Shown here: one piece after another, positions 7,403-60,782 of the stretch
How positions within the stretch are numbered: position 1 is the stretch's first letter
How the letters are laid out: every line of letters starts with the position of its first letter
Virus record (IMG/VR): IMGVR_UViG_3300045283_000318
Coordinates: 1,399 to 65,398 of that record
DNA length: 64,000 bases
Direction: 5' to 3' (one strand)
DNA from: a virus
Lineage: Duplodnaviria; Caudoviricetes
Notes under the pieces: generated by a model
The model's input: only the letters and a program-made list of their open reading frames with translations
Told to the model about the DNA's origin: nothing
Database searches by the model: none
Made by a program: the position numbers and the translations under genes

Positions 7403-7921
7403 ATGATTGAGATTAAGCATCGTCTTACCGGCACCGTTCTGTACGCATCCGAGGCTGCAGTCACTGTACGCGAAGCGGTCATAGCCGCTGTAAAAGGTGG
7501 CGCGGACCTTGGTGGCGCGTACCTTGGTGGCGCGTACCTTGGTGGCGCGGACCTTGGTGGCGCGTACCTTCGTGGCGCGTACCTTGGTGGCGCGGACCTT
7601 GGTGGCGCGGACCTTGGTGGCGCGGACCTTGGTGGCGCGGACCTTGGTGGCGCGGACCTTGGTGGCGCGGACCTTGGTGGCGCGGACCTTGGTGGCCAAT
7701 GGATTATACAGGGACAAACCCGTTCCGACGGATATGCATTCTTCCTGCAGCGCCTCACCGCTGACTCCGAACCCATGATCAAGGCCGGTTGCCGCTATTT
7801 CACGATTGCTCAGGCCGAAGTACATTGGACCAACACACGCGGTGGGACTCCACTCGGTTTCGAAACCCGTGCTATCGTCCGCGCCATGGTCGACACCATG
7901 CACATCAGGGGGTTGAAATGA
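7403..7921 (+). CDS. Pentapeptide-repeat protein
   Basis: 13 x (G/R)GA(D/Y)L; IKHRLTGTVL N-terminus and IKAGCRYFT C-terminal domain. Confidence 0.9.
   Translation: MIEIKHRLTGTVLYASEAAVTVREAVIAAVKGGADLGGAYLGGAYLGGADLGGAYLRGAYLGGADLGGADLGGADLGGADLGGADLGGADLGGADLGGQWIIQGQTRSDGYAFFLQRLTADSEPMIKAGCRYFTIAQAEVHWTNTRGGTPLGFETRAIVRAMVDTMHIRGLK
7496..7696 (+). repeat. 15-bp tandem repeat, 13 units
   Basis: GGTGGCGCG(G/T)ACCTT units, near perfect. Confidence 0.95.
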
Positions 7922-9389: not shown

Positions 9390-11634
9390 CTGTTTTCTTT
9401 CGCCACATGTTTGCGGTGGCGTTTCCGATTCGCTTCTTGTGCTTCTCGTATCCCAGGTTTTTCAGGATCGCGGCCGCGCGCATGGCGTCACCGATCGTCA
9501 CCGAGTCGACGCGCCGCTGGATGAACTGGTTGTCGCATAGGACTTCGTTGACCGTCACCTCGGTTTTTTGTTTCAGTGCCAGATAGTTGGCGATCGGCTC
9601 GACCCACCCATCGCTTTGCATCCTGTCTTCCTGTTCCGCGCCCGCCGCCTTCCACAGCCGTCCTGGTAGCGCGATGGTCTCTCCGGCTGCCTCGCGGTGC
9701 GCGGCTTCGGCCCAGATCTGGTCCCGGTCCTGCTGCAAGCCTGCGAGATCGATGCGTGACGTGGTGACCGGCCAGAAGCGGCGGTTACCGGTCTGGGATT
9801 TCAGGTATTCGTCATCGTTGGTTGTGGCGAAGAACACGGTGCGGCGCGGCCGGTCGACCCGGAATCGGCCGTAGGCCGGTCTGGCGCGATCGACCTTGCG
9901 GGAGGCGAACGCCTTGACGTGCTCGATATCGGCCTTTTTCATGCCGGTCAGGTCGGCAATTTCGTACAGCCATATCCCGCACATCGCTTCCTGCTGCTCC
10001 TTGTCCTGCTTGGCGAGGATGGACTGGTCCGAGAAGTTTTCAGGCCCGGCCAGAATTTCGATGGCGGTCGACTTGCCCTTGCCTTCTCCGCTTTCGAAAA
10101 CCACGATCTGATCAAACTTGGTGCCAGGCCAGCGCACGCGACGCACCGCGGCGATCAGGGTCAGGCGCCCGATGGCGCGGTTGAGCTCGGTATCAGGGGC
10201 GCCCATGTAGCGCTGCAACCACGTGTCGAGACGGGGCTGGCCGTCCCAGGCGAGGCCGTCGAGATAGTCGAGCACGGGATCATACTGGTGCTCAAGGCAG
10301 AGCTGGGTGCAGGCATCCCGGGTGTTTTCGGTCTTGGGGTCGAAGCCGAAGCGGTGGCGGATCATCTTGCGAATCATCTGGATGGCGTCGTCGGAGAGGT
10401 CGCCGGCCCACTGGTTGATGACGTGGCCGCCGACGGTCATTTTCTCGTGAAACAGGTCTTTCCGGCATTCGATGCCGAGTGCTGCGACTGCGATGCCTGC
10501 ATTGGTGCAGGTCGACTTCGGCTTGTTCTTATCGTCCAGATCCGCAAAGAAGATCGGTTGTTGCCCCCCGAACGCCGCTGGCAGGGCTTGATGCCCGTTG
10601 GCGCGGCCATTAAGGTGGGGCTGTTGCTGGACTAATTGCGGCCCATTCTTGCCCGGGGGCGCTTCTATCGCAGGGGCGCCCCCATTCCACCCGTGCTGCT
10701 GCGCCAGATGGTACAGCGTGCCGACCGACACGCCCGACCGTCGGAAGCTGTCCCACTTGGCTTCGCAGGCCGCCTGCGCGTACTTCTCGCGGCACGTCTG
10801 GCTCCACTCGTCCCAGATCACAAAGCCGAGATCGGTGCCGTCGGGCCGCTCCCACCCCAGATCTTTGAGCGCCATGCCGACCTGGAACCAGGTTTCGTAC
10901 TGATTCGCAGGGATCGCCGACAGCGCCGAGATCAGTCGCGCCTGCTCGGCCGGTGACCATATCGGTTTAAGGCTGTCGGCTAATGCATTAACGTTGCGGG
11001 TTATTGTTTCCGGTCGGGAAAGATGCGCTGGCAATTGACCCAGATGGTCAAGACCCGTCTCCCGGGGAGTTTTATTTGCAATCTCATAGCCTTGGGACCA
11101 TTGTCTTAGCCAATCGGGTAAGGTTGCTACGGGTAACTTCTTGATCCAAGTATAGATCCGGCCGGAAGCATGGCGACTGGGCGCGGCGACGACATACCCC
11201 CCTTCACCCCGGACGTGGACCTTACCCACGGCTGAAGACCGCACTTGAGGCGAATCAGGACGTGTGAGGTAAAAAGCGTGAAAACCGTTTCCTGTCTGCG
11301 CAAGGAGTGTCGCAGGGGGTGCGCCGTGCGCCGCAACCAGCGCCTTGAACTCTTCCATGCCCTCGCGGCCATCGATGTCGATGACGACGAGGCCTGAGCC
11401 GGTTGCGATTCCGATATTGGCATCGGGCCAACGGGCCCACCATTTGCGAATTTGTTCGAGATCATCCGTTGCGTCCTTGAAACCTCTTGCGGTACGGGGA
11501 TGCTTACCCACTCCTTTACCATCGGCATGAGCCTTGCCGCAAGTGCACACGCCGTTGACGACCGTGTGCAACGGGAACACCCCCCATTTCATGCGTGCGT
11601 AGGCACACGCAGCAGCGAGCATGTCATTCGACAT
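9373..11634 (-). CDS. Primase-polymerase / PriCT-2 / VapE-type helicase
   Basis: VFPL..GKHP, NIGIATG..VIDID, RGEGGYVV; WFQVGMALK..WDEWS; Walker A SGEGKGKST, TTN, TGNRRFWP. Confidence 0.92.
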   Translation of the reverse strand: MSNDMLAAACAYARMKWGVFPLHTVVNGVCTCGKAHADGKGVGKHPRTARGFKDATDDLEQIRKWWARWPDANIGIATGSGLVVIDIDGREGMEEFKALVAAHGAPPATLLAQTGNGFHAFYLTRPDSPQVRSSAVGKVHVRGEGGYVVAAPSRHASGRIYTWIKKLPVATLPDWLRQWSQGYEIANKTPRETGLDHLGQLPAHLSRPETITRNVNALADSLKPIWSPAEQARLISALSAIPANQYETWFQVGMALKDLGWERPDGTDLGFVIWDEWSQTCREKYAQAACEAKWDSFRRSGVSVGTLYHLAQQHGWNGGAPAIEAPPGKNGPQLVQQQPHLNGRANGHQALPAAFGGQQPIFFADLDDKNKPKSTCTNAGIAVAALGIECRKDLFHEKMTVGGHVINQWAGDLSDDAIQMIRKMIRHRFGFDPKTENTRDACTQLCLEHQYDPVLDYLDGLAWDGQPRLDTWLQRYMGAPDTELNRAIGRLTLIAAVRRVRWPGTKFDQIVVFESGEGKGKSTAIEILAGPENFSDQSILAKQDKEQQEAMCGIWLYEIADLTGMKKADIEHVKAFASRKVDRARPAYGRFRVDRPRRTVFFATTNDDEYLKSQTGNRRFWPVTTSRIDLAGLQQDRDQIWAEAAHREAAGETIALPGRLWKAAGAEQEDRMQSDGWVEPIANYLALKQKTEVTVNEVLCDNQFIQRRVDSVTIGDAMRAAAILKNLGYEKHKKRIGNATANMWRKKTGEIYA

Positions 11635-22351: not shown

Positions 22352-22542
22352 CAAACACCCTCGATAAGATCGCTCAGGCCATGATCGATTTCGATACGGA
22401 GCAGGGGCATATCGGCGTGGACGCGCCGGTGTGGGGGCGTTACCAGGGACTGGCTGGGGTCGCGCTGGAGGAAATCAGGAAGCGACTTGCCGGTACGGCT
22501 TGTGAGCTTGCTATCGAGTCCGTGCTCAAGGGGGAGTCGTAG
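22348..22542 (+). CDS. Hypothetical protein
   Basis: Coupled ORF. Confidence 0.55.
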   Translation: MTNTLDKIAQAMIDFDTEQGHIGVDAPVWGRYQGLAGVALEEIRKRLAGTACELAIESVLKGES

Positions 22543-22570
22543 GTACTTGTTTTACGGCAAGTTAAAGCAC

Positions 22571-22810
22571 ATGGCGAAGCAGGCAGCAGTTTTGTTCCGT
22601 AGAAAGGTCTACGTGGTCGGGCCGAACCACAAAGACGCGATCGACGCAGCGTTCGCCAAGTTCACCGAGCACCAGGCGCATCGCGTGACACTTCGAATCA
22701 TGGACGGCAAGGAAGACATCGTTTTTGGGTTCGCTTACATTGATGGGACGGACTTCAAGCCGTCCGACATGCAATCGGCGCGAAAGCGCATGTACGGATT
22801 TAATCCTTAA
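22571..22810 (+). CDS. Hypothetical protein
   Basis: ORF in rightward string. Confidence 0.55.
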   Translation: MAKQAAVLFRRKVYVVGPNHKDAIDAAFAKFTEHQAHRVTLRIMDGKEDIVFGFAYIDGTDFKPSDMQSARKRMYGFNP

Positions 22811-22831
22811 CGCGTCGAAAAGGGAATCACA

Positions 22832-23005
22832 ATGCTTGTACATATTTACGATCGCACGCCAGGCCAGCATACGAAGATAGGCGAGGCAAAGATGGATGCC
22901 ATTCCTCGCGAAGGCGATACCTGCTTAGTCAATGACGAAACCAAGATCGTTCACTCGGTGATGTGGGATCTGACGAAAATGTCCGTCAGTCTCCTTCTTA
23001 GGTAG
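22832..23005 (+). CDS. Hypothetical protein (57 aa)
   Basis: Read by eye; AAGGGA RBS; IPREGDT motif. Confidence 0.55.
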   Translation: MLVHIYDRTPGQHTKIGEAKMDAIPREGDTCLVNDETKIVHSVMWDLTKMSVSLLLR

Positions 23006-23014
23006 CAACAGAAC

Positions 23015-23272
23015 ATGGCCAAACAAACCGAAGTCCAGAAGCTGAAAGCTGAGATTGCGGTGCTCCGTGATCTGCTAGAGACAGCCTATCGGGAAGCGGA
23101 CAAGGCTCGCGCCGAAAGCGAAAAGGCTGACGACGAAGCTATCGAGCTGAAGCACGAAATGCTGAAGCTTCGTGCACTTGGAACACAAGACGGTGTGGAT
23201 TTGGTCTGGCACTGGAAGCGGAAATACGACGCTCTCGCAGCTCGCAGTCATCAACAGTTAAAGGAACCATAG
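23015..23272 (+). CDS. Coiled-coil hypothetical protein
   Basis: ORF in string. Confidence 0.55.
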   Translation: MAKQTEVQKLKAEIAVLRDLLETAYREADKARAESEKADDEAIELKHEMLKLRALGTQDGVDLVWHWKRKYDALAARSHQQLKEP

Positions 23273-49321: not shown

Positions 49322-49881
49322 ACCGGTGACCTGTAATTCGGGTTATCGGTGATCTGTCGCGGCAGCGGCGCTTGGCCAACGGGCGGCAACAGGCGCTGGA
49401 GCCGGTTACGCTCGCGCAGGCCTGCGTAAGCCACATCGCCCTGCGGGACATTGTGCGCGGCCGCAGCGCGGGCCATGGCATCAGATGGCGCCGTGTTGAA
49501 CCCGGTCGGCAGGCCGGCCGCCTGCATCGCATCCATGCGCTGGGTGACCTCGTTGCGAACCTCGATCGCTGAGAACTGGGCATCGTTGCGGTCGTTGAGG
49601 TTGGTGATCTTGAGGTTCGACATGTCCTCGACGCTGGTGCCGGCCATTACCGCAGCCATTTCCGCGCGCTGCACCGAGCCGTCCATAATGTCGCGCGCGA
49701 CCTTATCGTTGGCCTTGGTCTTGAACGACAGGATGTTCGGCATCACCACGTCGTCATCGTCGCGACGGTTGTTGATGTCGGCACCGCATTCCGGAATCTG
49801 ACAAAAATCTGGCCACCCCACGGAAACATCGTATTTGAACTTCCCCCGACAAACAGGGCATTTAAGAATTACGGGCATCAC
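49318..49881 (-). CDS. Zn-ribbon hypothetical protein
   Basis: CPVC...CQIPEC. Confidence 0.65.
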   Translation of the reverse strand: MMPVILKCPVCRGKFKYDVSVGWPDFCQIPECGADINNRRDDDDVVMPNILSFKTKANDKVARDIMDGSVQRAEMAAVMAGTSVEDMSNLKITNLNDRNDAQFSAIEVRNEVTQRMDAMQAAGLPTGFNTAPSDAMARAAAAHNVPQGDVAYAGLRERNRLQRLLPPVGQAPLPRQITDNPNYRSPV

Positions 49882-50365
49882 GCACGGCCTTTCTCCTAGC
49901 CGATTTTATCCTACACATGGTCGCTGAACGGCAAGCTCGACACTTTCTGTGCATGGTATCACGATACGAAAACCAATACGTGTTCTTTTCGTTGAACTCG
50001 TGACCGTTTTTACAATGCGTTTTCACCTTGTTTTTCGGAATGTGACTTTCGCCGCGAAAATTGTTTTCGGTTTGAGTAACCGGTTCGAGGTGATCTGGAT
50101 TCACGCAGCATCTAACTCGGCAAAGATGATCTAAATGCAACCCATTTGGAATCGAACCCTTAAATAGCTCGTACGAAATCCGATGCGCCCATCCGTGTCT
50201 TCCGTCAGGAGTATGAAAACGTCCGTAACCTTCTTTGCTAACGTGCGCTTCCCACAGCCAACATCCCGAGTTGGGCTCAGGACTTACATGCCGCATAAAG
50301 CGATCCTCGTACGGAATCACTTTGTACTGCCTGCCGCGAAAAAACTTCCCCTCTAAAACTTCCAT
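49862..50365 (-). CDS. HNH homing endonuclease
   Basis: NSGCWLW..GYG..AHRISY..LDHLCRVRCCVNPDHLEPVT..EN; THCKNGH finger. Confidence 0.9.
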   Translation of the reverse strand: MEVLEGKFFRGRQYKVIPYEDRFMRHVSPEPNSGCWLWEAHVSKEGYGRFHTPDGRHGWAHRISYELFKGSIPNGLHLDHLCRVRCCVNPDHLEPVTQTENNFRGESHIPKNKVKTHCKNGHEFNEKNTYWFSYRDTMHRKCRACRSATMCRIKSARRKAVRDARNS

Positions 50366-50472
50366 CAGCGATCCCATGCTTTTGCGGCGAGCACAAACAG
50401 GCTGCCGACAGCCAGAATAGCGACAATGGTGCCGACGATCTCGACGACGTTTCGAACAGTTTCGTGCGTCAC
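50365..50472 (-). CDS. 35-aa TM peptide
   Basis: Read by eye; overlaps terminase stop and HNH start. Confidence 0.5.
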   Translation of the reverse strand: MTHETVRNVVEIVGTIVAILAVGSLFVLAAKAWDR

Positions 50473-52379
50473 CGTCCGTACCTCCACGCGTTCTTCATCG
50501 CCAGCTGCTGAGCCTGAAGCCGATTCTGCTTCTTCCCGCTCATGAACGAGGCTACCATGTTCTGGTTGAAGAGAGCCGTGGTGTCAATAATGGAAGCCTG
50601 CTTCTTGGCGGCCTCGGCCGTCCGCGTCCGCTTCTGGACGATCAGGTTGCGCCGGATCTTGGTGCTCCAGTAGTGAATGGCCATGGCCATCGCGATCACC
50701 CGGTCATCCTTGAGGTTGCCCTCGGCGGCGATCGAGGAACCGTCCCGCGTCACCGTCTTCATCTCCTCGATCAGATCGTGCGAACGAACGTGAAGCTGGA
50801 CATTGGCAAAGTAACCGCGCAACCCCTCCAGGATCGACTCCTTATTCTGCGGCGAGGTCTTCCAGTGCCAAGCGCTGCCGCTACCGGTCATCGAGTCAGG
50901 CCGCGCGTAGATGAACGATTTGACATTCCGGAAAATGTTCTTCAGTCCCTGATCCTCGAGCGGCGCGTAGCCGTTCTCGATCTGGAACTTCAACGTCTTG
51001 AGTTCGGCCAGCACATCACTGCCAGGCCCGTTGATCTCCAGGATGTAGTGCACTTCGCTCAGCGGCTCGTTACCGTACCAGGCCATGATGCCGGCTACGA
51101 CGTGAGCGAAGTGGCGGGTGGTGATCATGGGGTAGGCGTATTCGGCGACCTGGTCGACGCCATCGGCGTAGCAGCGCAGCACCTGAATCGAGGAGCGGTC
51201 GTTGAGCTCGTTCTCGCCATAAGCCGGATCGACGCCTAGCACATAGACGGCCTCCGAGGTCGGCGCCTCCCACACCTTGAGCTCGATGTTGCGAGTGGTC
51301 TCGGCCTTGTAAACCTTCATGTCGGAAAATTCGGTACCGCCCAAAAACATGTACGGCGAAAATTTTCGCGAGACATACTTGTCAGTTTGAACCTTCAGCG
51401 TCTCGCCGGCGAAGAACGTACTGCCGGTCTGCTGGAACGCTTCCTCCTCGTCCCAGGGCTGCTCCTGCTTCTGAAACTGATCGGCCTCGAAGCCAGCATC
51501 GACCTCTTCCTCGTCGACCGCCGATGGGTCCATGGCGCGCCGGTACCACGCCAGCTGCTCCTGAGTAACGCTGAAGTCGTACTTCTCCTTGACGAGGTCG
51601 ATCTTGGCCTGCTCCTCGCGGGTCGGGGGCTGGGCGCCGTAGAATTCCCAGTCGCGATCGCCGCGCTCTATCTTGTGGCTGTCCTTGGCCCACCAGCCGA
51701 TAAAGACGCAAATACAATGGCGCACATCCTTGCGCGCGATCTTCCACATCTCGTTCCACATGTTGTAGCCGCGAGCGGTGGACTCGTAGATGTAAAGTCG
51801 GTTCGGATTAATATCCGACAGCGACTCCCGGAATGAGATCAGGCCTTCCTGGTTGTCGTAGGAACAAAGCTCGGACAGGTGCGCCAGCGAGACGCCAGCC
51901 GACCGGCCGAGAGTGCCCGAGGTCTTGGTCTTCTTGATGCCGGCCGACTTGAACAGGATCTTGGACGAGTTCGACAGCGTCAGGCCGTCGCGGTTATCCT
52001 TGGCGATCCCGGGGAATTTAAGGCGGTCGGGCAGCGCCTTGATGATGGTGACGAGCTCGTCCCGAGCAAGATTCTTGTTCTCGTTGGTATCGAAAACAAG
52101 GGCTCCGGTAAGGCCGCGGTGGACGCCCAGGAAGAAGGCACACAAGGCCCGAATGATTGTGGTGATGCCGAGCTGGCGAGATTTTAGACAGTAATAGTCG
52201 TGAACATCGATTTCCAATCCATCAAAAATCGCAGTGATAAATACCCGTTGTCCGTACATCAAATATTTGCCAAGTATAATCGGCTCACCATGGTCTTTGG
52301 AATTTATTTCGCAGGAATTCAAATACGTATAGAACGCCGCCTCAAAAGCCAATCTTTTCTCTCGTGACCAACCCGTCAT
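50469..52379 (-). CDS. terL: Terminase large subunit
   Basis: LKSRQLGITT, HLSE, ESTARG, LGVDPAYG, DDRVIA. Confidence 0.93.
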   Translation of the reverse strand: MTGWSREKRLAFEAAFYTYLNSCEINSKDHGEPIILGKYLMYGQRVFITAIFDGLEIDVHDYYCLKSRQLGITTIIRALCAFFLGVHRGLTGALVFDTNENKNLARDELVTIIKALPDRLKFPGIAKDNRDGLTLSNSSKILFKSAGIKKTKTSGTLGRSAGVSLAHLSELCSYDNQEGLISFRESLSDINPNRLYIYESTARGYNMWNEMWKIARKDVRHCICVFIGWWAKDSHKIERGDRDWEFYGAQPPTREEQAKIDLVKEKYDFSVTQEQLAWYRRAMDPSAVDEEEVDAGFEADQFQKQEQPWDEEEAFQQTGSTFFAGETLKVQTDKYVSRKFSPYMFLGGTEFSDMKVYKAETTRNIELKVWEAPTSEAVYVLGVDPAYGENELNDRSSIQVLRCYADGVDQVAEYAYPMITTRHFAHVVAGIMAWYGNEPLSEVHYILEINGPGSDVLAELKTLKFQIENGYAPLEDQGLKNIFRNVKSFIYARPDSMTGSGSAWHWKTSPQNKESILEGLRGYFANVQLHVRSHDLIEEMKTVTRDGSSIAAEGNLKDDRVIAMAMAIHYWSTKIRRNLIVQKRTRTAEAAKKQASIIDTTALFNQNMVASFMSGKKQNRLQAQQLAMKNAWRYGR

Positions 52380-52391
52380 GCACGCACCAAA

Positions 52392-52416
52392 CAAAAAAAG
52401 CCCGCCGAAGCGAGCC
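52392..52416 (-). terminator. Intrinsic terminator closing the repeat locus
   Basis: GCTCGC-TTCG-GCGGGC-T7 on the minus strand. Confidence 0.85.
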
Positions 52417-52420
52417 TTCT

Positions 52421-52506
52421 ACCACACCTTGCCCAGCCGAGCCAATGCCCAACCGAAGCTTACCTAGCCTGACCTTGCCACACCCCGCCTAGGCATGCCT
52501 TACCCT
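52421..52506 (-). repeat. NN-GGY pentamer array C (17 units, one extra nt), candidate guide RNA
   Basis: 15 of 17 units end in GGY. Confidence 0.85.
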
Positions 52507-52518
52507 AGCGGATTCAAG

Positions 52519-53121
52519 CTACTCGAACTTCACGATACCAAACCTGCCAAACGTCGGCCGAAAATCGCCCATGCCGATCAATCGGCCAGCAGATTCGATT
52601 GTTTCCCGAAGCGTATTCGTATCCACGTACTCGGGCAAGACGCACATCAAATCAAACGTTGCTTCCCAGCCCGCGCGCATCGCCGGCCGTGTCCGGTTGA
52701 TTCCGTTGCGTTGAATTGTAACCCGACGCTTGTCGAGATAATCCCAAGTACCGACGCCGAGCGTCGCCAAGGGAGTCGTCACAACGATCGCCGCCTTGAA
52801 CAAATCCATCGCTGACTTTCGCGGCGACCTGGGATCTTGTCGAAACTTCGCCGCGTTAACTACACTGCCTCGAAGATACTCGCCAGGAATCGCAAGTTGA
52901 CCGGCGTCAGTTCGATAAACGTAAGTCTCAACGTCATCAGTTTTCTTCGCCTTGGAGTTCTTCGCCGCAGCGGCCTTCTCATCCACCGCTTCGGCGTTCC
53001 AGCGATGAAATAGAAAATCTGCCGATCCGCGTACAGTCACCGCAACGTGATACGGTTGACTGTGCGAAATGGTTTCGTTGCCGCCGTCGGTCGGCTCTTT
53101 CAATTGAACAATTTTGCTCAT
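52519..53121 (-). CDS. Cas7/RAMP-like RNA-binding protein
   Basis: VTVRGSADFLFH strand, LAIPGEYLRGSV helix, C-terminal Gly loop AGRLIGMGDFRPTFGRF. Confidence 0.75.
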   Translation of the reverse strand: MSKIVQLKEPTDGGNETISHSQPYHVAVTVRGSADFLFHRWNAEAVDEKAAAAKNSKAKKTDDVETYVYRTDAGQLAIPGEYLRGSVVNAAKFRQDPRSPRKSAMDLFKAAIVVTTPLATLGVGTWDYLDKRRVTIQRNGINRTRPAMRAGWEATFDLMCVLPEYVDTNTLRETIESAGRLIGMGDFRPTFGRFGIVKFE

Positions 53122-53124
53122 AAA

Positions 53125-53179
53125 ACCTCACCTAACCAGTGCGTGCCATACACCACCACGGCGTATCTTGCCTCGCCTG
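53125..53179 (-). repeat. NN-GGY pentamer array B (11 units)
   Basis: 7 of 11 units GGY in strict 5-nt register; last unit GAGGT serves as RBS. Confidence 0.75.
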
Positions 53180-53183
53180 TGTC

Positions 53184-53390
53184 TTACTTTAAATACACTC
53201 TGGGGTCGATGTCAAGAAAATAAGACGTTAAAATCAAAAAAGTTTCGGCGCTGACCGGCAACCCTCGATCAGCGCGAGACACAGTAGCGTGACTGATGTC
53301 GTATTTTTTTCCTAAGTCACGCACAGACAGCGAGCAAGCTTGTCGATGCTCGTAAACATCAGCCCCGAACTCTTTCCACTTTATGGTCAT
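53184..53390 (-). CDS. XRE/Cro-like HTH protein
   Basis: LSVRDLGKKYDISHATVSRADRG. Confidence 0.75.
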   Translation of the reverse strand: MTIKWKEFGADVYEHRQACSLSVRDLGKKYDISHATVSRADRGLPVSAETFLILTSYFLDIDPRVYLK

Positions 53391-53395
53391 TATAA

Positions 53396-53490
53396 ACCTT
53401 ACCCGACCTGGCCTTACCTTGTCTTAGAATGCCACACCATGCCTAACTAAACCGCAACCTGCCGGACCTAGCACTGCCGCACCCGACCAT
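53396..53490 (-). repeat. NN-GGY pentamer array A (19 units)
   Basis: 14 of 19 units GGY; all 19 end in a pyrimidine; strict register. Confidence 0.85.
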
Positions 53491-53496
53491 GGGAAC

Positions 53497-53525
53497 TTTA
53501 TAAGGCCGAGCCGGTTACCCGTCCA
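53497..53525 (-). promoter_or_regulatory. Promoter driving the repeat locus
   Basis: TGGACG-17-TATAAA; expected +1 near 53490, the first base of array A. Confidence 0.65.
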
Positions 53526-53541
53526 GCCCCCGGAGGCTTCC

Positions 53542-53754
53542 ATGCCCGACCTCATCATTCAAATCATTATCATCATGCTGATCGCCGGCTTCGTCTACTG
53601 GTGCTGGCTGAAGCTGTCGCCCCTGATGCCCATCGCCGAGCCGTTCGCTTCCGTCATCAACGTGCTGGTCGTGATCCTGATCGCGGCAATCGTGCTATTC
53701 TACGCCATCATCCCGCTGCTGCACCAGTTGGGCCATATGAGCCTAGTGCGCTAA
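53542..53754 (+). CDS. Two-TM membrane protein
   Basis: GGAGG RBS; hydrophobic hairpin. Confidence 0.75.
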   Translation: MPDLIIQIIIIMLIAGFVYWCWLKLSPLMPIAEPFASVINVLVVILIAAIVLFYAIIPLLHQLGHMSLVR

Positions 53755-54302
53755 CAACTCGTTAAGGCAGATCGGAGGATGAAGCAGGCGATGTGCCGAC
53801 CAGTCCCCTTGCCGGCCGTACTGTCTTCTGTTGCAATCCACTTCACGTCACCGAGATTGCGAATGTCGGCTGTCTCGCCGAAGATAGCCTTGACCAACAT
53901 CAGCAGCCATTTGTCGACAGGGTAGACGAGGACCACCGTCTTTCCCTTCTGCCATTCCTCAATCGCTTTTCGAACCCACGCGGTCGGACCTTTCTTCTTG
54001 CCCTGATGCATGATGGATCCGAAGGGCGGGTTTACGTAGCTGACTGTTCCCCACTCACAGGTGAGACCGTCGAAGCCTTCCGGCAGCGGGAAAGGGCATG
54101 GGTCGAAGTTGAACCCGAACTCGGCATGAAGCCGCGCGTAAAGGTCTGGCGGGGTGAGCCAATAATGCTTCCCGTCGTCGCCGTTGCCCTTGTGAAACTT
54201 GTTCTCGGACGGGGCGAGAAGCGATTGGTGTAGATCGGTCAACTTCTGTTTCCTTAAGTGATGTGCAACGCTGTCAGCCGACGAGCTTCTCGCCCTTGGC
54301 AT
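53751..54302 (-). CDS. Phage DNA N6-adenine methyltransferase (start uncertain)
   Basis: WLTP, FNFDPCP, DGL..EW, YVNPPF. Confidence 0.85.
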   Translation of the reverse strand: MPRARSSSADSVAHHLRKQKLTDLHQSLLAPSENKFHKGNGDDGKHYWLTPPDLYARLHAEFGFNFDPCPFPLPEGFDGLTCEWGTVSYVNPPFGSIMHQGKKKGPTAWVRKAIEEWQKGKTVVLVYPVDKWLLMLVKAIFGETADIRNLGDVKWIATEDSTAGKGTGRHIACFILRSALTSC

Positions 54303-55974: not shown

Positions 55975-56160
55975 CTATTTATATTGCGGGAAATACGGAG
56001 CCAGCACGTCTTCCATTGCATCGTGGATACGCTTGCGTAGCTGCTCCATCTCCCACGAGTTGAGCCGTGCCTTGACGGTAGGCGGCAGAAATACCTTGCA
56101 CGAAACCACGCCGCGCCCGATGTCGATCTCGTAAACCGCGCCGTCGGTTCTGCAATTCAT
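55975..56160 (-). CDS. Hypothetical protein
   Basis: Coupled ORF. Confidence 0.5.
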   Translation of the reverse strand: MNCRTDGAVYEIDIGRGVVSCKVFLPPTVKARLNSWEMEQLRKRIHDAMEDVLAPYFPQYK

Positions 56161-57554
56161 CCAACCTTCTCCATCAAAGCTTCGACGATCCGCTCGAACA
56201 CCGGCTCCCAGCGCATATCGTCGGATTGCTGGAAGAACTTCGCTTTCGGAGTCCAGATACGTTGCGCGTCAGTGCCGTTACAACCTCCGCGGTAGTCCCT
56301 CCCGCACCACGAGTATGGGACCCAGTGCTCGTGACCGCCCATCGCGCAGATGTGCCCAAGCGCCGACTCGACCGTAATCACGAGGTCAAGATGCGGCAAC
56401 ACCGAATAGGTGTCGGCGATGCAACGAAGGTAACCACTGAGATCTTTGACCAGCGGGGCGAAGCCCCACAAGTTCAAGTCGGACTTTTTGGCATCACACT
56501 GCAGGGCGTAGAGTTGAACACCGGGCACCCGGTACAATTCCATGAAGTGATGAATCGGAATATTTCGGTGCTTATCGATGTCGTTCAACGGGCTACCAGC
56601 CCAGGCAATGCCAATGTGGAATTTGCGATCAGGAACCTTCCACGAGGTCGGCATCGGGTCTCGCGGCACATCGATGTTCGGCGCGTTCTTGATCTCGTCG
56701 TCGGTCAGTCCCAGTGCATAGGGCAAAGAGACAAAGGTCGACCACGCGTCCGCATCTCCCGGAAAGTTCGAAGGCGAGGGGAGGAAGTTGATATTGGGGA
56801 GGTGCCGGAAAGCATGTTCAAAGGTGCGACGCAATTCGGCTTGAGTACACATATGAATATAACGACAGCGTTTAGCAGCAGCCTCAACAAAACGTGCGTA
56901 TGACAGCGTGTCACCGAGGCCCTGATCCGCGACAAGAAACAGTGTCTTGCCTTTTTCACCTTCCCATTTTTTATAGGGGTAAAGCAAAAAATTCGGCAGC
57001 CGTGCCGCAAACCTTGATTCAAAGCGCTTCAGTCCCGCAGCGAACTGACCGTCAAACAACAAGGCGAACGCCAGTTGAAACTCAGCAATCGGGTAGCCCT
57101 GGCCGTCATTTGGATCGGCGAGTTCAAAGCACTTCAGCGCGTAACCAACAGCTTTTTTGGTATCACCGAGTATCTGCCAAATCATGCTACAATGCATATT
57201 TGGTAGTGACGACTTCGGCTCCAAAGTCATTGCCTCATGCAACAAAGGCAACGCCTCTTTGTGATTCCCGATTTTCATCAATTCCCATGCTAAATTCGTA
57301 AGCGTTCTATGACGCTCGCCAGAAGTCTGCTCACACTCAAGCGCACGACGAAACAGTGCGACAGACGCATGCGGACGAATCAAATCCGAAGCAGTGCACC
57401 CGTTAACGTAAAAAGCCTGCCCATAAGTCGGGTCGGCGTAGCATGCACTTGCGAATTGCTGATAAGCGTGGTCCTGATTCGTCGCATGCGATTTATCGCG
57501 AGCGGCCTGCTCGCCTTGCGCCATGAGTTTGATTGCGCCTTCGCGATTACCCAC
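56157..57554 (-). CDS. TPR-repeat plus GT-B (GT9-like) glycosyltransferase
   Basis: TPR helices; DQGLGD...ARF; IGIAWAGS; LDLVITVESALGH. Confidence 0.85.
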   Translation of the reverse strand: MGNREGAIKLMAQGEQAARDKSHATNQDHAYQQFASACYADPTYGQAFYVNGCTASDLIRPHASVALFRRALECEQTSGERHRTLTNLAWELMKIGNHKEALPLLHEAMTLEPKSSLPNMHCSMIWQILGDTKKAVGYALKCFELADPNDGQGYPIAEFQLAFALLFDGQFAAGLKRFESRFAARLPNFLLYPYKKWEGEKGKTLFLVADQGLGDTLSYARFVEAAAKRCRYIHMCTQAELRRTFEHAFRHLPNINFLPSPSNFPGDADAWSTFVSLPYALGLTDDEIKNAPNIDVPRDPMPTSWKVPDRKFHIGIAWAGSPLNDIDKHRNIPIHHFMELYRVPGVQLYALQCDAKKSDLNLWGFAPLVKDLSGYLRCIADTYSVLPHLDLVITVESALGHICAMGGHEHWVPYSWCGRDYRGGCNGTDAQRIWTPKAKFFQQSDDMRWEPVFERIVEALMEKVG

Positions 57555-58041
57555 GTAACTTCCTCTTGTAGTTTCTGCGGGAGTTCGCTTGCGAACACGC
57601 CCTACACAGTCGAATCTTCCCGCGGAAAACTATGTTGCCTTCTTGCATAAAATGCAAGCCCGCCCTGCAGTGTGTTCGCGTAGCAGCCAGCAACCGGTTA
57701 TTTTCTGCGGCATTGCCGCGCCTGCAATTCTCGCGTTGAGTAACTGGCTCGAGGTGATGCGGATTCACGCAACATCGCATTCGACACTTGTGGTCCAAGA
57801 CCATTCCCTCTGGAATCGGCCCTATGAAGTGCTTGTAAGCTTCACGATGCACCGACACCATATTCAGTTTTTTCTTACCATCCACCATTCTCGTCATGCC
57901 CATTTTGGCATACCCGAGCTTAGTTATATTTCCCATCCATATGTAACAGCCGGTGTTCGGTTCTGGAAAAGCAAAATGGTTATATCGGTCTTCGAAAGAA
58001 GAACTAATTCCTCCTTCTTTAAATTTTCTACGCAACAACAT
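57547..58041 (-). CDS. HNH homing endonuclease
   Basis: NTGCYIW..VHREAY..LDHKCRMRCCVNPHHLEPVT..EN. Confidence 0.9.
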   Translation of the reverse strand: MLLRRKFKEGGISSSFEDRYNHFAFPEPNTGCYIWMGNITKLGYAKMGMTRMVDGKKKLNMVSVHREAYKHFIGPIPEGMVLDHKCRMRCCVNPHHLEPVTQRENCRRGNAAENNRLLAATRTHCRAGLHFMQEGNIVFRGKIRLCRACSQANSRRNYKRKLRG

Positions 58042-58234
58042 TTGCCTTCCTGAACTCCTGCGCCAAACAAATGCCGTGGCCTCGCCCGACAAGCCTGCCC
58101 GTCTTGGGATCGGTGCCACCGAATGCCCAGTCGTGAACCCATTCCGAAGTGTCTTTACGAAATCGAATCGGATCGCCGGTCGCACACCGCGGGCACAACT
58201 CCTTGCACTTGGCTTCGAACTCTTCCGGAGACAT
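58028..58234 (-). CDS. Small Zn-binding protein
   Basis: CPRC...EWVH...C. Confidence 0.6.
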   Translation of the reverse strand: MSPEEFEAKCKELCPRCATGDPIRFRKDTSEWVHDWAFGGTDPKTGRLVGRGHGICLAQEFRKANVVA

Positions 58235-58661: not shown

Positions 58662-58928
58662 TCACTTCTTTTTCTCGATCTGCTTGGGCTTCGCAACGCG
58701 TTGTATTTCACGCTTTTCCGTAATCAATTCTCTGGCGCGCCGTCGAATCACGTCACACCATCGGTCAATAGCAAAATAAGCCGAATCGCCCTTAACCATC
58801 TCCGAGGCAACGCCTGCCGCCGCCAGCTTCTGGGCCATCTCCTCCATGTGAGGGATGATCTCCCGCTGCATCTTGGCTTGAGTCAGGAAATTGCGCGCCA
58901 TGTCGTCGGTGAAAGGGCCGTCGGTCAT
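58662..58928 (-). CDS. Hypothetical protein
   Basis: AGGAGG RBS; overlap with recombinase stop. Confidence 0.6.
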   Translation of the reverse strand: MTDGPFTDDMARNFLTQAKMQREIIPHMEEMAQKLAAAGVASEMVKGDSAYFAIDRWCDVIRRRARELITEKREIQRVAKPKQIEKKK

Positions 58929-59623
58929 TGTGTCGCCTCCTGCGAGATCACCCGCCTGATCGCCATCGGCGTGTACGGCGTCCCCGCGCGCGACAGCATG
59001 CCCTGCGCGGCCAGCTCCTGTGAGATCGCCGGCAATGACATCCGCCCCTGATACCACTGCCGCATCAGGGTGCCGGCGACCTGCTCCTCGGGATGCAGCT
59101 CCAGCATCGACTCGTGACCGGTGCCGACCTTCCGATAGCCGAACGGGACATTGCCAACCGGTCCCCCCTTGGCCTTCTTCGCCCTCCGGCCGTCGGCGGT
59201 CCGCTCCTTGATCCGGACCCGTTCCATCTCGGCCACCGCCGCCAGGATGGTGACGATCAGCTTGGCGATCGCCGACTCCAGGACCGACTCAGTGCCCATG
59301 TCGAACAGCACCAGGTGCACGCCCTTCTCGCGGAAAACCTCGAACATGTTCAGCGCATCGGAGGCGCTGCGGAACATGCGGTCAAGCTTCGAGGCTATCA
59401 CCGTGTCGCCCGGGGCCATGGCGGCGAGGAGGTCGGCGCCGGCGGGCCGGCAGGCAAGCTTGACCGCGCCGGACACGCCGGCATCGGTGAAAATCTGGAC
59501 GCCGTACTTGTCGATGCCGCGGGTGCGGGCGAAGCCCTCAATGATGTCGGTCTGGACCTGCAAAGACGAGCGATCGTCCTTGGCCTGATCGGCGCTCGAA
59601 ACGCGGCAATACCCCAGTATCAT
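58925..59623 (-). CDS. Serine recombinase (resolvase domain plus partial recombinase domain)
   Basis: GYCRVSS..Q, D.GVSG, RP, KLDRMFRS, AEMER..I.ER, VPFGY. Confidence 0.9.
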   Translation of the reverse strand: MILGYCRVSSADQAKDDRSSLQVQTDIIEGFARTRGIDKYGVQIFTDAGVSGAVKLACRPAGADLLAAMAPGDTVIASKLDRMFRSASDALNMFEVFREKGVHLVLFDMGTESVLESAIAKLIVTILAAVAEMERVRIKERTADGRRAKKAKGGPVGNVPFGYRKVGTGHESMLELHPEEQVAGTLMRQWYQGRMSLPAISQELAAQGMLSRAGTPYTPMAIRRVISQEATQ

Positions 59624-59659: not shown

Positions 59660-60661
59660 CTATGTAGCAGCCTTTGTCAACGCCTGATCCCTCACCCATG
59701 GATACGTCTTTTCCAGTCCGTCCCACAAAGAAGTCAACGGCTCCCAGTCCAGGACCTTCCGGCACAGGGTGTTGTCGCTGCCGCGGTGCCGAACACCCTC
59801 CGGACCGGCCGTCGGCTTCCACGCCAAGACCTTGCCGGCGACCGAACAGACCGTCTCGAACAGCTCGGCGATGGTCATCGTGTCGGGATGGGCGATATTG
59901 ACGGGGCCGGAATAGCCCGATCGCATCAGCCGAATGATGCCTTCGACGGCGTCATCGACATAGGTAAAAGAGCGACTGGCGTTCCCATCTCCCCATATCT
60001 CAACAACCCCGGCATAAGGTGCCTGCGCAACTCGTCGGCAGATTGCGGCTGGAGCTTTAGCCCGATCACCGTCCCATGCGCAGTACGGACCGTAAGTGTT
60101 GCCGAGCCGTCCGATCCGAACGTCAATTCCGTGATTTCGGGAAAAGGCGAGGTAGAGAGCTTCAGCATACAGCTTCTCCTTGGCAAAAGCGAAATTGTTC
60201 TCAAACACCGCGTCGGTCTCCTTCCATGGAGCCGGCGGCGGGGCGATCCGTTCGGACGCATACGGATCAATCTCGATCCGGTTGTCAGGATAGACACACT
60301 GGGAGGAGGCAAAGAAAATGCGGTTGCATGCACCGGTCTTGCGGATCGCCTCGAGGGTGTGGAGGTTAATCTTGAGCGAGTTGGTCAGAATATCAACATC
60401 GTTATCGCCAGAACCAATGTATCCCAAGCCTCCGACATTTCCAGCGCACTGATACACTTCGTCAAAATGATGTCGAAAGAAATGATGATGAAAGTCCGGC
60501 GTATTAGTAAGATCAAGTACATTGTATTCATCTGCGGCTGACTTCCGGAAGGTAGGAGGTTTGCGGGCAACGCTGACGACGTAGTGGCCCTCCTCGCGAA
60601 GGCGATGTTCGAGATGCCCGCCAATGTGGCCGGCGGCGCCGAGGACGAGACACTTCTTCAT
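59660..60661 (-). CDS. NAD-dependent sugar epimerase (GDP-mannose 3,5-epimerase-like)
   Basis: GAAGHIG, VGGLGYI, ASSQCVYP, KAPAAICRRVA, WGDG..RSFTYVDD. Confidence 0.88.
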   Translation of the reverse strand: MKKCLVLGAAGHIGGHLEHRLREEGHYVVSVARKPPTFRKSAADEYNVLDLTNTPDFHHHFFRHHFDEVYQCAGNVGGLGYIGSGDNDVDILTNSLKINLHTLEAIRKTGACNRIFFASSQCVYPDNRIEIDPYASERIAPPPAPWKETDAVFENNFAFAKEKLYAEALYLAFSRNHGIDVRIGRLGNTYGPYCAWDGDRAKAPAAICRRVAQAPYAGVVEIWGDGNASRSFTYVDDAVEGIIRLMRSGYSGPVNIAHPDTMTIAELFETVCSVAGKVLAWKPTAGPEGVRHRGSDNTLCRKVLDWEPLTSLWDGLEKTYPWVRDQALTKAAT

Positions 60662-60782
60662 CGATCGTACTCCACCCATTGGCGATTGCACTTTTCGCAC
60701 CGCATTAAACGAGAATGATAAAACGATTCTGTTGTCCAGTGTGGACGGTGTGCGAGCCAGCACCACACTGCTTTAAATAGAC

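What the first reader, a model, noticed from the sequence alone, without database searches (positions are those of the whole stretch)
52519..53121. Solitary minimal Cas7-like protein in a phage with no CRISPR locus
Seen: first strand VTVRGSADFLFH, IPGEYLRG helix, a thumb-like hairpin RRVTIQRNGINRTRP and a terminal Gly loop IGMGDFRPTFGRF. Known: group 7 RAMPs (Csm3, Cmr4, Cas7) carry IPGS.LKG and a C-terminal G-rich loop. No cas5, cas6, cas8 or cas10 partner is visible. Inference: either a stand-alone, possibly ancestral-type effector, or an anti-CRISPR Cas7 mimic.
Basis: partly seen in the sequence, partly recalled or inferred. Interest (0 to 1): 0.75.

Follow-up and report, generated by a model that had tools for sequence, protein, structure and literature searches.

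The report
Phage VIPR system: Vipr plus guide repeats

Summary
The 200-aa ORF at 52519-53121 (-) is real. Its best PDB fold matches are Csm3/Cas7 subunits. A 66-homologue profile hits one PDB sequence meaningfully, the SUSP1 Vipr protein (E 6.4e-18), the protein of the VIPR systems described in three 2026 bioRxiv preprints.

Period-5 GGYNN tracts flank the gene on its own strand: 17 units downstream ending in a terminator hairpin, 11 units in its 5' leader, and 19 units upstream of the neighbouring 68-aa gene. All 36 related loci show such tracts beside vipr, with near-random NN, and no neighbouring gene is shared.

No cas gene or CRISPR array is present. The anti-CRISPR-mimic reading has no support.

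No natural target was found for the window's own guides, and expression could not be tested.

A relative's guide matches this window's vipr gene at 26 of 28 informative positions under the published one-nucleotide-skip rule. Skipped bases fall on codon third positions, and that relative's own vipr matches only 19 of 28.

Verdict: a new member of a known kind; moderate interest.

The parts
52519..53121 (-). vipr gene: a 200-aa single-RRM RAMP protein (Vipr) with a helical insert at about residues 40-70, a thumb hairpin at 128-148 and a G-loop at 183-193.
   Evidence: ORF and translation. The PDB profile hit to SUSP1 Vipr has E 6.4e-18 over profile positions 33-206 and chain residues 5-189. AF2 model pLDDT 94.3. 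Foldseek top matches are Csm3/Cas7. Matches PHROG 4652, function unknown, E 2.2e-16.
52419..52509 (-). Downstream vrRNA-like tract D. After one degenerate GCTAG unit, 12 pentamer units run in one register (10 GGY, 2 GCY). One extra T follows, then 5 more GGY units.
   Evidence: Register analysis and the period-5 GGY scan (up to 7 of 8 successive units). It starts 10 nt after the vipr stop codon.
52395..52420 (-). Hairpin followed by a T run. It is read as an intrinsic-terminator-like 3' end of the vipr/vrRNA transcript and a possible vrRNA 3' tail.
   Evidence: Terminator scan: 11-pair stem, 4-nt loop. The same hairpin appears in the RNA fold.
53123..53177 (-). Upstream tract U1 in the vipr 5' leader: 11 pentamer units in one register, 7 of them GGY. 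The last units (GGTGA GGTTT) abut the start codon and double as the Shine-Dalgarno region.
   Evidence: scan.
53186..53215 (-). Sigma-70-like promoter (TTGACA, 18-nt spacer, TAAAGT) that would start a transcript covering U1, vipr and D.
   Evidence: 10 of 12 hexamer matches, and the only promoter-like site in 52200-53900. Shuffles of the region give a mean of 0.9 such sites, so this is weak evidence.
53394..53488 (-). Upstream tract U2: 19 pentamer units in one register, 14 of them GGY. It ends 3 nt before the start codon of the 68-aa gene.
   Evidence: scan (up to 6 of 8).
53184..53390 (-). A 68-aa ORF between U2 and U1. By eye it looks like a small helix-turn-helix protein. It may be an accessory (vap-like) protein or simply the phage's own regulator.
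   Evidence: ORF. No Pfam or PHROG hit. No homologue beside vipr in 36 relatives. The HTH reading is by eye only.
52988..53028 (.). Site inside vipr (gene nt 94-134, codons 32-45, GSADFLFHRWNAEA, including His39) that matches a relative's vrRNA under the one-nucleotide-skip rule.
   Evidence: The L014 upstream guide matches 26 of 28 informative positions. The second-best site in the 65-kb genome scores 18, and 500 shuffled guides reach at most 21. Skips of 0, 2 or 3 give 18. Skipped bases fall on codon position 3.

Best explanation
The ORF encodes a Vipr protein, and with the flanking GGYNN tracts it forms a VIPR (Viral Interference Programmable Repeat) system carried by a 65-kb soil phage.

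Proposed mechanism, taken from the characterised SUSP1 system:
1. The tracts are transcribed with the gene, probably from the promoter-like site at 53215-53186 to the hairpin terminator at 52420-52395.
2. One Vipr protomer binds each pentanucleotide unit.
3. His39 and Asp186 read G1. Arg145 of the thumb and Phe187 hold G2. Arg188 holds the pyrimidine.
4. The two variable bases of each unit stay exposed. Together they pair with double-stranded DNA that carries the same dinucleotides separated by one skipped base.
5. The bound filament blocks transcription of a competing phage, prophage or satellite.

Shown here by computation: homology, fold, conservation of the contact residues, the tracts and their restriction to the vipr flanks and coding strand, hypervariable NN among relatives, absence of cas genes and CRISPR arrays, no self-target, and the one-nucleotide-skip rule operating between relatives' guides and vipr genes.

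Inferred, not shown: transcription and processing of the tracts, RNP formation, DNA binding, silencing, and what this phage's guides aim at.
For: - Homology to a solved Vipr. Alone, the protein hits one PDB sequence, 36pp_D 'SUSP1 Vipr protein' (E 1.4e-05, residues 126-196). A 66-sequence profile raises this to E 6.4e-18 over nearly the full length. The only other hit at E <= 1 is a ribosomal protein at E 0.21.
- Fold. The AF2 model has pLDDT 94.3. Its best PDB matches are Csm3/Cas7. BFVD matches include 'Cas system-associated RAMP superfamily protein' of an uncultured siphovirus (E 3.1e-08) and an uncharacterised viral protein (E 1.1e-10, TM 0.68).
- Contact residues. SUSP1 H17, R138, D177, W178 and R179 (structure preprint, section read) align to H39, R145, D186, F187 and R188. 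R145, D186 and R188 are at least 90% conserved in the 66-sequence alignment.
- Repeats. A scan for 5 or more GGY in 8 successive pentamers finds 32 start positions on the minus strand. They fall into four places, three of them around vipr. The plus strand has 2 such positions. Twenty block shuffles give 0-4 positions on both strands together. The registers are resolved.
- Relatives. The window and all 36 fetched loci (31 distinct sequences) have sense-strand runs of at least 4 GGY units within 400 nt of vipr. Only one antisense run was found anywhere. Over 1755 units the NN positions are near-uniform: position 4 is A .29, C .18, G .30, T .23; position 5 is A .30, C .21, G .20, T .29 (sequences).
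- Minimal locus. None of nine neighbouring window proteins has a homologue in the relatives' flanks apart from one HNH match (ORFs listed). This fits a self-contained vipr-plus-repeats module.
- No self-target. The window's guides score no better on its own genome than shuffled guides do, as the discovery preprint reports for its systems.
- The targeting rule works in this clade. Guides in L012, L014, L027 and L028 hit other relatives' vipr genes at 18 or more of 20 positions and never their own. In the shuffled-guide control, 1 scan maximum reached 18, the highest value seen.
Against: - No natural target was found for the window's own guides. Five exact one-skip patterns gave 0 hits. Two gave one hit each, and neither extends beyond the searched units: L037 matches 1 of 4 further positions and L038 matches 1 of 14. 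That is what chance predicts.
- No match with up to 3 mismatches was found in five relatives' whole records, and none in 31 loci.
- No RNA data exist for this sequence.
- The tracts are irregular. D has degenerate GCY units and a 1-nt register shift. Only 7 of 11 U1 units and 14 of 19 U2 units are canonical.
- No shared, invariant 3' tail was seen, only variable short hairpins.
- No conserved accessory gene was found.
- The similarity to SUSP1 Vipr is remote: by my count of the match line, about 25 identical of 71 aligned columns. W178 is Phe here, and His39 is the majority residue but below 90% conservation.
- TM-scores to Cas7 proteins are only about 0.5.
- The VIPR type could not be assigned, because the classification rests on figures and data files I could not see.
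Confidence: 0.88

Rival explanations
1. The two upstream tracts (U1, U2) are not guides but cis-acting Vipr-binding leaders. Vipr would polymerise on its own mRNA leader and on that of the 68-aa gene, cover the ribosome-binding site, and so feed back on translation. Only tract D would be a guide. This reading concerns parts of the locus and is compatible with the main explanation.
For: Both tracts run in one register right up to the start codon, and their last GGY units form the Shine-Dalgarno sequence: GGTGA GGTTT T ATG for vipr and GGTAA GGTTT ATA ATG for the 68-aa gene. In several relatives the upstream tract likewise ends just before the ribosome-binding site.
Against: In relative L014 the tract in the same position is clearly a guide, matching foreign vipr genes at 26 of 28 positions. 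SUSP1 also has an expressed upstream vrRNA (discovery preprint). In the closest relatives (L001, L002, L005) a hairpin and T run separate the upstream tract from the ribosome-binding site. Purine-rich leaders are common anyway.
Confidence: 0.2
2. The protein is an anti-CRISPR decoy: a Cas7 mimic that poisons host type I or type III effector complexes, or soaks up crRNA.
For: It has a Cas7-like fold and sits in a phage with no cas genes. The top Foldseek hit happens to be an entry that holds an anti-CRISPR, but the matched chain has the fold and size of the Csm3/Cas7 subunits matched in the other entries.
Against: The gene always travels with its own GGYNN arrays on the coding strand. The residues that read GGY in SUSP1 Vipr are conserved. 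Its one solved homologue is an RNA-guided DNA binder (preprint sections read). Identity to Cas7 proteins is 9-17%, too low for a subunit mimic of any particular host complex.
Confidence: 0.03
3. The protein is the small terminase subunit or another packaging protein, because it sits directly upstream of the terminase-large-subunit-like gene.
For: Its position is next to 50469..52394 (-), which matches PHROG 38 (terminase large subunit) weakly, at E 1.4e-04.
Against: A terminator-like hairpin separates the two genes. No relative keeps this neighbourhood. In phage DSL-LC04 the annotated small terminase lies about 2.5 kb from the homologue. The fold is RAMP.
Confidence: 0.02

Closest known systems
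SUSP1 VIPR system (type II VIPR). Sources: bioRxiv 10.64898/2026.04.26.720920 and 10.64898/2026.04.26.720927; PDB 36pp.
   Same: A single roughly 200-aa RAMP protein with a thumb and a G-loop. The G1, G2 and Y3 contact residues are kept. GGYNN tandem repeats lie upstream and downstream of the gene on the same strand. It is phage-borne, has no cas genes and shows no self-target.
   Different: The sequence relation is remote: phmmer E 1.4e-05 over the C-terminal 71 residues only, and tblastn of the phage collection at E <= 0.001 did not return SUSP1. No conserved vap gene was found. The tract ends in a plain hairpin terminator rather than the pseudoknot tail described for the SUSP1 clade. The tracts contain more degenerate (GCY) units and run to 17-19 units, against 9-16.
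CRISPR group-7 RAMPs: Csm3 (type III-A), type VII Cas7 and the Cas7 domains of Cas7-11.
   Same: The same RRM core with helix 1, an inserted thumb hairpin and a C-terminal glycine loop. These are the best structural matches in the PDB.
   Different: No Pfam or meaningful NCBIfam family match and 9-17% identity. There are no Cas5, Cas6, Cas10 or large-subunit partners and no CRISPR array. The guide is a 5-nt repeat, not a spacer, and target pairing is gapped, two bases paired and one skipped.
[quoted passage not shown]
   Same: Guides of relatives L012, L014, L027 and L028 match vipr genes of other clade members and spare their own. The window's vipr is one such predicted target.
   Different: Here the attackers are VIPR-positive environmental phages of a different Vipr clade. 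The main site covers the codons of the His motif that reads G1. Sparing of the attacker's own gene goes with amino-acid changes (FLFH to LLMH in L014, by my translation of the output).

Membership tests
VIPR system (Vipr protein plus vrRNA) | Protein homologous to an experimentally characterised Vipr | tested here: met
   36pp_D SUSP1 Vipr: E 1.4e-05 for the single sequence and E 6.4e-18 for the profile, over nearly the full length.
VIPR system (Vipr protein plus vrRNA) | Minimal RAMP fold: a single RRM core, a thumb hairpin and a glycine-rich loop, with no second RRM domain | tested here: met
   AF2 model, pLDDT 94.3, with secondary-structure elements listed. Foldseek matches to Csm3/Cas7. 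The protein is 200 aa and has one domain.
VIPR system (Vipr protein plus vrRNA) | Residues that read the GGY motif (SUSP1 H17, R138, D177, W178, R179) | tested here: met
   They align to H39, R145, D186, F187 (aromatic kept, Trp to Phe) and R188. R145, D186 and R188 are at least 90% conserved in 66 homologues. The K33 equivalent could not be placed.
VIPR system (Vipr protein plus vrRNA) | At least four tandem YNNGG/GGYNN units beside vipr | tested here: met
   Three tracts of 17, 11 and 19 units on the coding strand. Shuffles give 0-4 qualifying positions against 32 observed.
VIPR system (Vipr protein plus vrRNA) | GGY conserved and NN hypervariable among related loci | tested here: met
   37 of 37 loci (window plus 36) carry tracts. 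NN composition is near-uniform over 1755 units. The tract sequences differ even between loci whose proteins are 83-84% identical.
VIPR system (Vipr protein plus vrRNA) | Conserved structured 3' tail after the repeat tract | tested here: inconclusive
   Tract D ends in an 11-pair hairpin plus a T run. Relatives show short GC hairpins of varying sequence. No shared tail was identified, and no covariance model was built.
VIPR system (Vipr protein plus vrRNA) | Accessory vap gene next to vipr, which the discovery preprint calls typical of VIPR loci (vap1-6 across seven types) | tested here: inconclusive
   No neighbour is shared with 36 relatives. The adjacent 68-aa ORF has no family hit. The preprint names six vap genes for seven types, so a vap-less type may exist, but I could not see the figure or data file that says so.
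VIPR system (Vipr protein plus vrRNA) | vrRNAs expressed and co-purifying with Vipr | not testable with these tools
   The only run listed for this stretch is one soil-metagenome DNA run, probably the source.
VIPR system (Vipr protein plus vrRNA) | Natural DNA targets matching NN under the one-nucleotide-skip rule | tested here: inconclusive
   For the window's own guides, nothing rose above chance. The rule itself is borne out in the clade: the L014 guide scores 26 of 28 with skip 1 and 18 with skip 0, 2 or 3.
VIPR system (Vipr protein plus vrRNA) | No self-targeting at 80% or more NN identity | tested here: met
   Best self matches on the 65-kb genome are 16/24, 16/22 and 22/38, all within the shuffled-guide range.
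CRISPR-Cas Cas7 / group-7 RAMP (Csm3, Cmr4, Cas7) | Sequence membership in a curated RAMP/Cas7 family | tested here: not met
   Pfam gives 0 families at E <= 10. NCBIfam gives only an unrelated hit far below its cut-off.
CRISPR-Cas Cas7 / group-7 RAMP (Csm3, Cmr4, Cas7) | Encoded with other cas genes and a CRISPR array | tested here: not met
   No Cas family in 31 window proteins. No spaced direct repeats.
CRISPR-Cas Cas7 / group-7 RAMP (Csm3, Cmr4, Cas7) | RAMP fold with thumb and G-loop | tested here: met
Small terminase subunit | Terminase small-subunit fold or family, with conserved position beside the large subunit | tested here: not met
   No such family hit. The fold is RAMP. The neighbourhood is not conserved.

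The most novel reading that the evidence does not exclude
In this abundant environmental clade, VIPR is a self-contained cassette without an accessory protein (vipr plus flanking guide tracts) that hops between unrelated phages, and its members fight one another. Rival cassettes carry guides against the codons of the G1-reading His motif of this window's vipr, read in the wobble-skipping register, while their own vipr is recoded at the protein level to escape. In addition, the guide-like tracts that end on the ribosome-binding sites of vipr and of the 68-aa gene would give Vipr direct translational feedback on its own locus, an RNA-level activity not described for VIPR.
Probability: 0.3. Interest if true: 0.6.

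Novelty: new member of a known kind. Interest (0 to 1): 0.45.

Why it matters
VIPR was described only in 2026, as a minimal RNA-guided DNA-binding system that its authors propose to be older than CRISPR. This locus shows three things:
- A reader working from raw sequence alone could pick out such a protein.
- The family is very abundant in metagenomes. 6792 clusters at 90% identity match this one query, whereas the discovery preprint reports 2,664 Vipr sequences retrieved from NCBI NR.
- The published one-nucleotide-skip, wobble-aligned targeting rule holds in a distant soil-phage clade, where vipr genes themselves are targets.

The locus also offers a compact natural cassette of about 1.2 kb for testing guide processing and possible self-regulation.

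Tried and rejected
**Target searches for the window's own guides**
- Own genome: nothing above shuffled guides.
- 31 distinct relatives' loci: nothing above shuffled guides.
- Whole records of five relatives, up to 3 mismatches: 0 hits.
- Exact one-skip patterns, viral contigs: tract D units 1-12, 0 hits. Tract D units 4-12, 0 hits. Tract U1 units 1-9, 1 hit, L037:11012-11037. That hit is in frame in a 231-aa ORF, but only 1 of 4 further positions match, so I judged it chance.
- Exact one-skip patterns, genome contigs: D units 1-12, 0 hits. U1 units 1-10, 0 hits.
- Exact one-skip patterns, metagenome contigs: D units 2-11, 0 hits. D units 8-17, 1 hit in an AT-rich contig, L038. Only 1 of 14 further positions match, so I judged it chance.
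- These scans need exact matches, so targets with a few mismatches would be missed.

**Expression**
- No RNA holder is listed for the stretch.

**Family and RNA libraries**
- Rfam: no family in the window at gathering score, and no tRNA.
- Pfam and NCBIfam gave nothing for the protein.
- Source names for the protein and four relatives: none.

**Weak period-5 signals elsewhere**
- The signals at 56103-56142 (-) and 10154-10198 (+) lie inside coding sequence and reach only 5 of 8 units, so I treated them as chance.

**VIPR type**
- Not assignable from the text I could read. The type tree, locus diagrams and data files are figures or supplements that I could not see.

- One search was an unfinished script. 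One search failed on a parameter limit and was corrected.
- No complex prediction was run.
Full report
**1. The observation**

The ORF is real. An ATG-started frame of 200 codons lies at 52519..53121 on the minus strand.

It is a widespread, strongly conserved gene:
- 6792 of 6969 candidate proteins match at E <= 0.001 in the 90%-clustered collection.
- The best 120 are 77-91% identical and 200-220 aa long.
- Where these proteins carry a name, it is 'hypothetical protein'.
- 1262 representatives of 50%-identity clusters match at E <= 0.001, and 111 of them at E <= 1e-30.

Curated libraries say little. Pfam gives nothing at E <= 10. NCBIfam gives nothing meaningful. PHROGs gives one family of unknown function, phrog_4652, at E 2.2e-16.

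**2. Fold**

I aligned 66 homologues (alignment A1) and predicted the structure from that alignment. The model has mean pLDDT 94.3 and pTM 0.86. Its elements are:
- a first strand at 24-32;
- a helical insert at about 43-67;
- a helix at 168-182;
- an unstructured glycine-rich stretch at 183-193;
- a last strand at 194-199.

Foldseek against the PDB puts Csm3/Cas7 subunits first, from type III-A, type VII and Cas7-11 complexes. The best E is 4.6e-07, probability 1.00, TM 0.42-0.57 and identity 9-17%, with 154 matches at E <= 0.001.

Against predicted viral structures, four matches pass E <= 0.001. They include an uncharacterised viral protein (E 1.1e-10, TM 0.68) and one annotated 'Cas system-associated RAMP superfamily protein' from an uncultured siphovirus (E 3.1e-08).

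**3. What it is**

Searched alone against PDB sequences, the protein hits one entry, 36pp chain D, 'SUSP1 Vipr protein' (E 1.4e-05, residues 126-196). The A1 profile raises this to E 6.4e-18 over profile positions 33-206 and chain residues 5-189.

A literature search led to three 2026 bioRxiv preprints on VIPR, Viral Interference Programmable Repeat systems. What I read of each:
- 10.64898/2026.04.26.720920 (discovery paper): Results, Discussion, four Methods sections and the supplementary figure legends.
- 10.64898/2026.04.26.720927 (structure paper): abstract and two Results sections.
- 10.64898/2026.10.15.759431 (competition paper): abstract, one Results section and one Methods section.
- I could not see any figures or supplementary data.

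According to these papers:
- Vipr is a minimal RAMP of about 20 kD, encoded mainly by phages.
- It polymerises one protomer per unit on vrRNAs made of 9-16 YNNGG repeats.
- It hides the GGY bases and presents the NN bases.
- The NN bases pair with double-stranded DNA in which one base is skipped after each pair.
- Binding silences transcription of competing mobile elements.

The SUSP1 residues that read GGY are H17, R138, D177, W178 and R179. They align to H39, R145, D186, F187 and R188 of the window protein. R145, D186 and R188 are at least 90% conserved in A1. His39 is the majority residue but below 90%.

**4.

On the coding strand the gene is flanked by period-5 GGY tracts. I scanned for at least 5 GGY in 8 successive pentamers:
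- The minus strand has 32 qualifying start positions, grouped in four places. Three lie at 52404-52514, 53118-53162 and 53379-53498.
- The plus strand has 2 qualifying positions.
- Twenty block shuffles give 0-4 positions on both strands together.
- The fourth minus-strand place and the plus-strand place lie inside coding sequence at the bare threshold. I take them as chance.

The registers resolve as follows:
- Tract D (52509-52419) starts 10 nt after the stop codon. It has one degenerate unit, then 12 units in one register (10 GGY, 2 GCY), one extra T, and 5 more GGY units. It runs into an 11-pair hairpin followed by a T run at 52420-52395.
- Tract U1 (53177-53123) has 11 units in one register, 7 of them canonical. 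It ends on the Shine-Dalgarno sequence of vipr.
- Tract U2 (53488-53394) has 19 units in one register, 14 of them canonical. It ends 3 nt before the start of the 68-aa ORF 53184..53390.

The only promoter-like site in 52200-53900 is TTGACA-18-TAAAGT at 53215-53186 (-), just upstream of U1. Shuffles of the region give about one such site, so this is weak evidence. With the terminator it outlines one transcription unit: U1, vipr, D.

**5. Relatives**

I fetched 35 IMG/VR loci and one GenBank phage, DSL-LC04. In DSL-LC04 the 57%-identical homologue is annotated 'helix-turn-helix transcriptional regulator'.

- The window and all 36 loci (31 distinct sequences) carry sense-strand runs of at least 4 GGY units within 400 nt of vipr.
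- Only one antisense run was found in all the flanks.
- Over 1755 units the two variable positions are near-uniform in composition.
- The tract sequences differ completely even where the proteins are 83-84% identical.
- Array sizes range widely. L012 has runs of 111, 30 and 78 GGY units.

None of nine neighbouring window proteins has a homologue in the relatives' 3-kb flanks, apart from one HNH match. The ORFs next to vipr differ from locus to locus. The conserved unit is therefore vipr plus its tracts, and I found no shared accessory gene.

**6. Context**

The window is 64,000 of the 65,398 bases of a single virus record. Pfam identifies these genes:
- a primase-polymerase with a VapE-like domain;
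- a family A DNA polymerase;
- a PD-(D/E)XK nuclease;
- an SNF2 helicase;
- an SU10-type adaptor;
- two HNH endonucleases;
- a Dam-like methyltransferase;
- a serine recombinase;
- an NAD-dependent epimerase.

The gene downstream of vipr matches the terminase large subunit only weakly. No Cas family appears among 31 proteins scanned, and no CRISPR-like repeat is present.

**7. Targets**

*The window's own guides.* They do not match its own genome above shuffled guides. This agrees with the absence of self-targeting reported in the discovery preprint. I found no convincing external target either:
- Five exact one-skip patterns gave 0 hits.
- Two gave single hits that do not extend beyond the searched units.
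- Five relatives' whole records gave nothing at up to 3 mismatches.
- Exact-pattern scans miss imperfect targets, so the question stays open.

*Relatives' guides against this phage.* The reverse search was informative. I called 96 arrays in the relatives and scanned them against this phage's genome.
- One stands out: the 14-unit tract just upstream of vipr in L014, a 96-kb virus record rated 100% complete.
- It matches window 52988-53028 at 26 of 28 informative positions.
- The second-best site in the genome scores 18, and 500 shuffled guides reach at most 21.
- With 0, 2 or 3 skipped bases the best score is 18.

*The site.* It lies inside the window's vipr gene, at gene nt 94-134 and codons 32-45 (GSADFLFHRWNAEA). 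This includes His39, the residue aligned to the G1-reading His of SUSP1. Every skipped base falls on a codon third position. Four of the 14 units are degenerate (GCY or CGY), yet their NN bases match at 7 of 8 positions. Such units therefore seem to count as guide units in this clade.

*The same guide on other loci.*
- 26 of 28 on L001, L002, L005 and L006.
- 25 of 28 on L007, L015 and L017.
- 24 of 28 on L031.
- 19 of 28 on L014's own vipr, where by my translation of the output the peptide reads LLMH instead of FLFH.

*All against all.* With 10-unit windows, guides in L012, L014, L027 and L028 hit other relatives' vipr genes at 18 or more of 20 positions. The sites are near nt 91-134, 172-190, 367 and 450-487. 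None hits its own vipr. In the shuffled-guide control, 1 scan maximum reached 18, the highest value seen.

This extends to an environmental, VIPR-positive clade what the preprints report for the P. fulva clade and for VIPR-null SUSP1-like phages. It is also an independent in-silico confirmation of the one-skip, wobble-aligned rule. Whether L014-type phages and this phage ever meet in one host is unknown.

**8. Mechanism and rivals**

The best-supported reading is a VIPR system working as in SUSP1. A Vipr filament forms on GGYNN RNA, recognises DNA in gapped fashion, and silences a competitor (confidence 0.88).

The rivals are:
- *Cis-acting leaders.* U1 and U2 end on ribosome-binding sites, so they may also, or instead, act as Vipr-binding leaders for translational feedback. 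This is untested, about 0.2, and compatible with the main reading.
- *Anti-CRISPR mimic.* No support, because the gene always travels with its own guide arrays and keeps the GGY-reading residues.
- *Packaging role.* Position next to the terminase-like gene suggests it, but the fold and the lack of conserved synteny contradict it.

**9. Novelty**

The kind is known: three preprints from 2026 and one PDB entry. For a specialist, though, this is now a further member.

The features worth noting are:
- no shared accessory gene;
- a hairpin-terminator tail instead of a pseudoknot;
- frequent GCY units;
- tracts that abut ribosome-binding sites;
- the predicted attack on this vipr by a rival's guide.

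I rate the novelty as a new member of a known kind and the interest as 0.45.

Noticed in passing
Relatives' loci: L003:2505-2640, L006:2853-2990, L007:2853-2990, L014:2744-2879, L017:2748-2885, L032:2860-2998 and, in diverged form, L015:2860-2998: A conserved element of about 120 nt lies just upstream of vipr, or of the upstream guide tract, and ends in GGAGAC. RNAalifold on 7 sequences predicts 32 pairs in a multi-stem junction, 9 of them with compensatory changes. No Rfam family matches at gathering score or at E <= 5. It is absent from the window. It may be an undescribed processing or regulatory RNA tied to vipr loci. The discovery preprint mentions hammerhead-interspersed arrays, but no hammerhead model matched.
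   Followed up: partly
L012 (IMG/VR locus), flanks of vipr: Very long guide arrays: runs of 111 and 30 GGY units upstream of vipr and 78 downstream. This is far beyond the 9-16 units described for single vrRNAs. They may be the 'staggered arrays' of the discovery preprint.
   Followed up: no
L036 = Phage DSL-LC04 (OR003939.1), record 22429-23046: The 57%-identical Vipr homologue is annotated 'helix-turn-helix transcriptional regulator'. The fold and homology found here indicate a mis-annotation. Guide tracts lie upstream of it.
   Followed up: partly
window 7496-7696: A 15-nt tandem repeat (GGTGGCGCGGACCTT) with 13.4 copies and 96% matches, inside overlapping ORFs on both strands. It would encode a pentapeptide repeat.
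   Followed up: no
window 53542-53754 (+): A 70-aa, very hydrophobic ORF on the opposite strand, apparently two membrane helices by eye. It lies in the otherwise non-coding stretch upstream of tract U2.
   Followed up: no
window 58925-59623 (-), 59660-60766 (-), 53751-54302 (-), 49862-50377 (-), 57547-58185 (-): The phage carries a serine recombinase (Resolvase, E 6.9e-32), an NAD-dependent epimerase/dehydratase (E 7.7e-39), a Dam-like methyltransferase and two HNH endonucleases. The recombinase hints at a temperate or invertible-segment lifestyle.
   Followed up: no
L037:11012-11037 (IMG/VR contig): The only exact viral match to nine units of tract U1 lies in frame, with skipped bases on codon third positions, in a 231-aa ORF. 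By eye the C-terminal part of that ORF looks like a winged-helix DNA-binding domain. The next two units match at only 1 of 4 positions, and about one chance hit is expected by my rough estimate of the collection's size, so I treat it as chance.
   Followed up: partly
window 52001-54000: This 2-kb stretch has among the lowest G+C in the window (0.533, against about 0.53-0.66 elsewhere) and the strongest negative GC skew (-0.144). The G-rich guide tracts on the minus strand account for this, and it may also mark a module of foreign origin.
   Followed up: no
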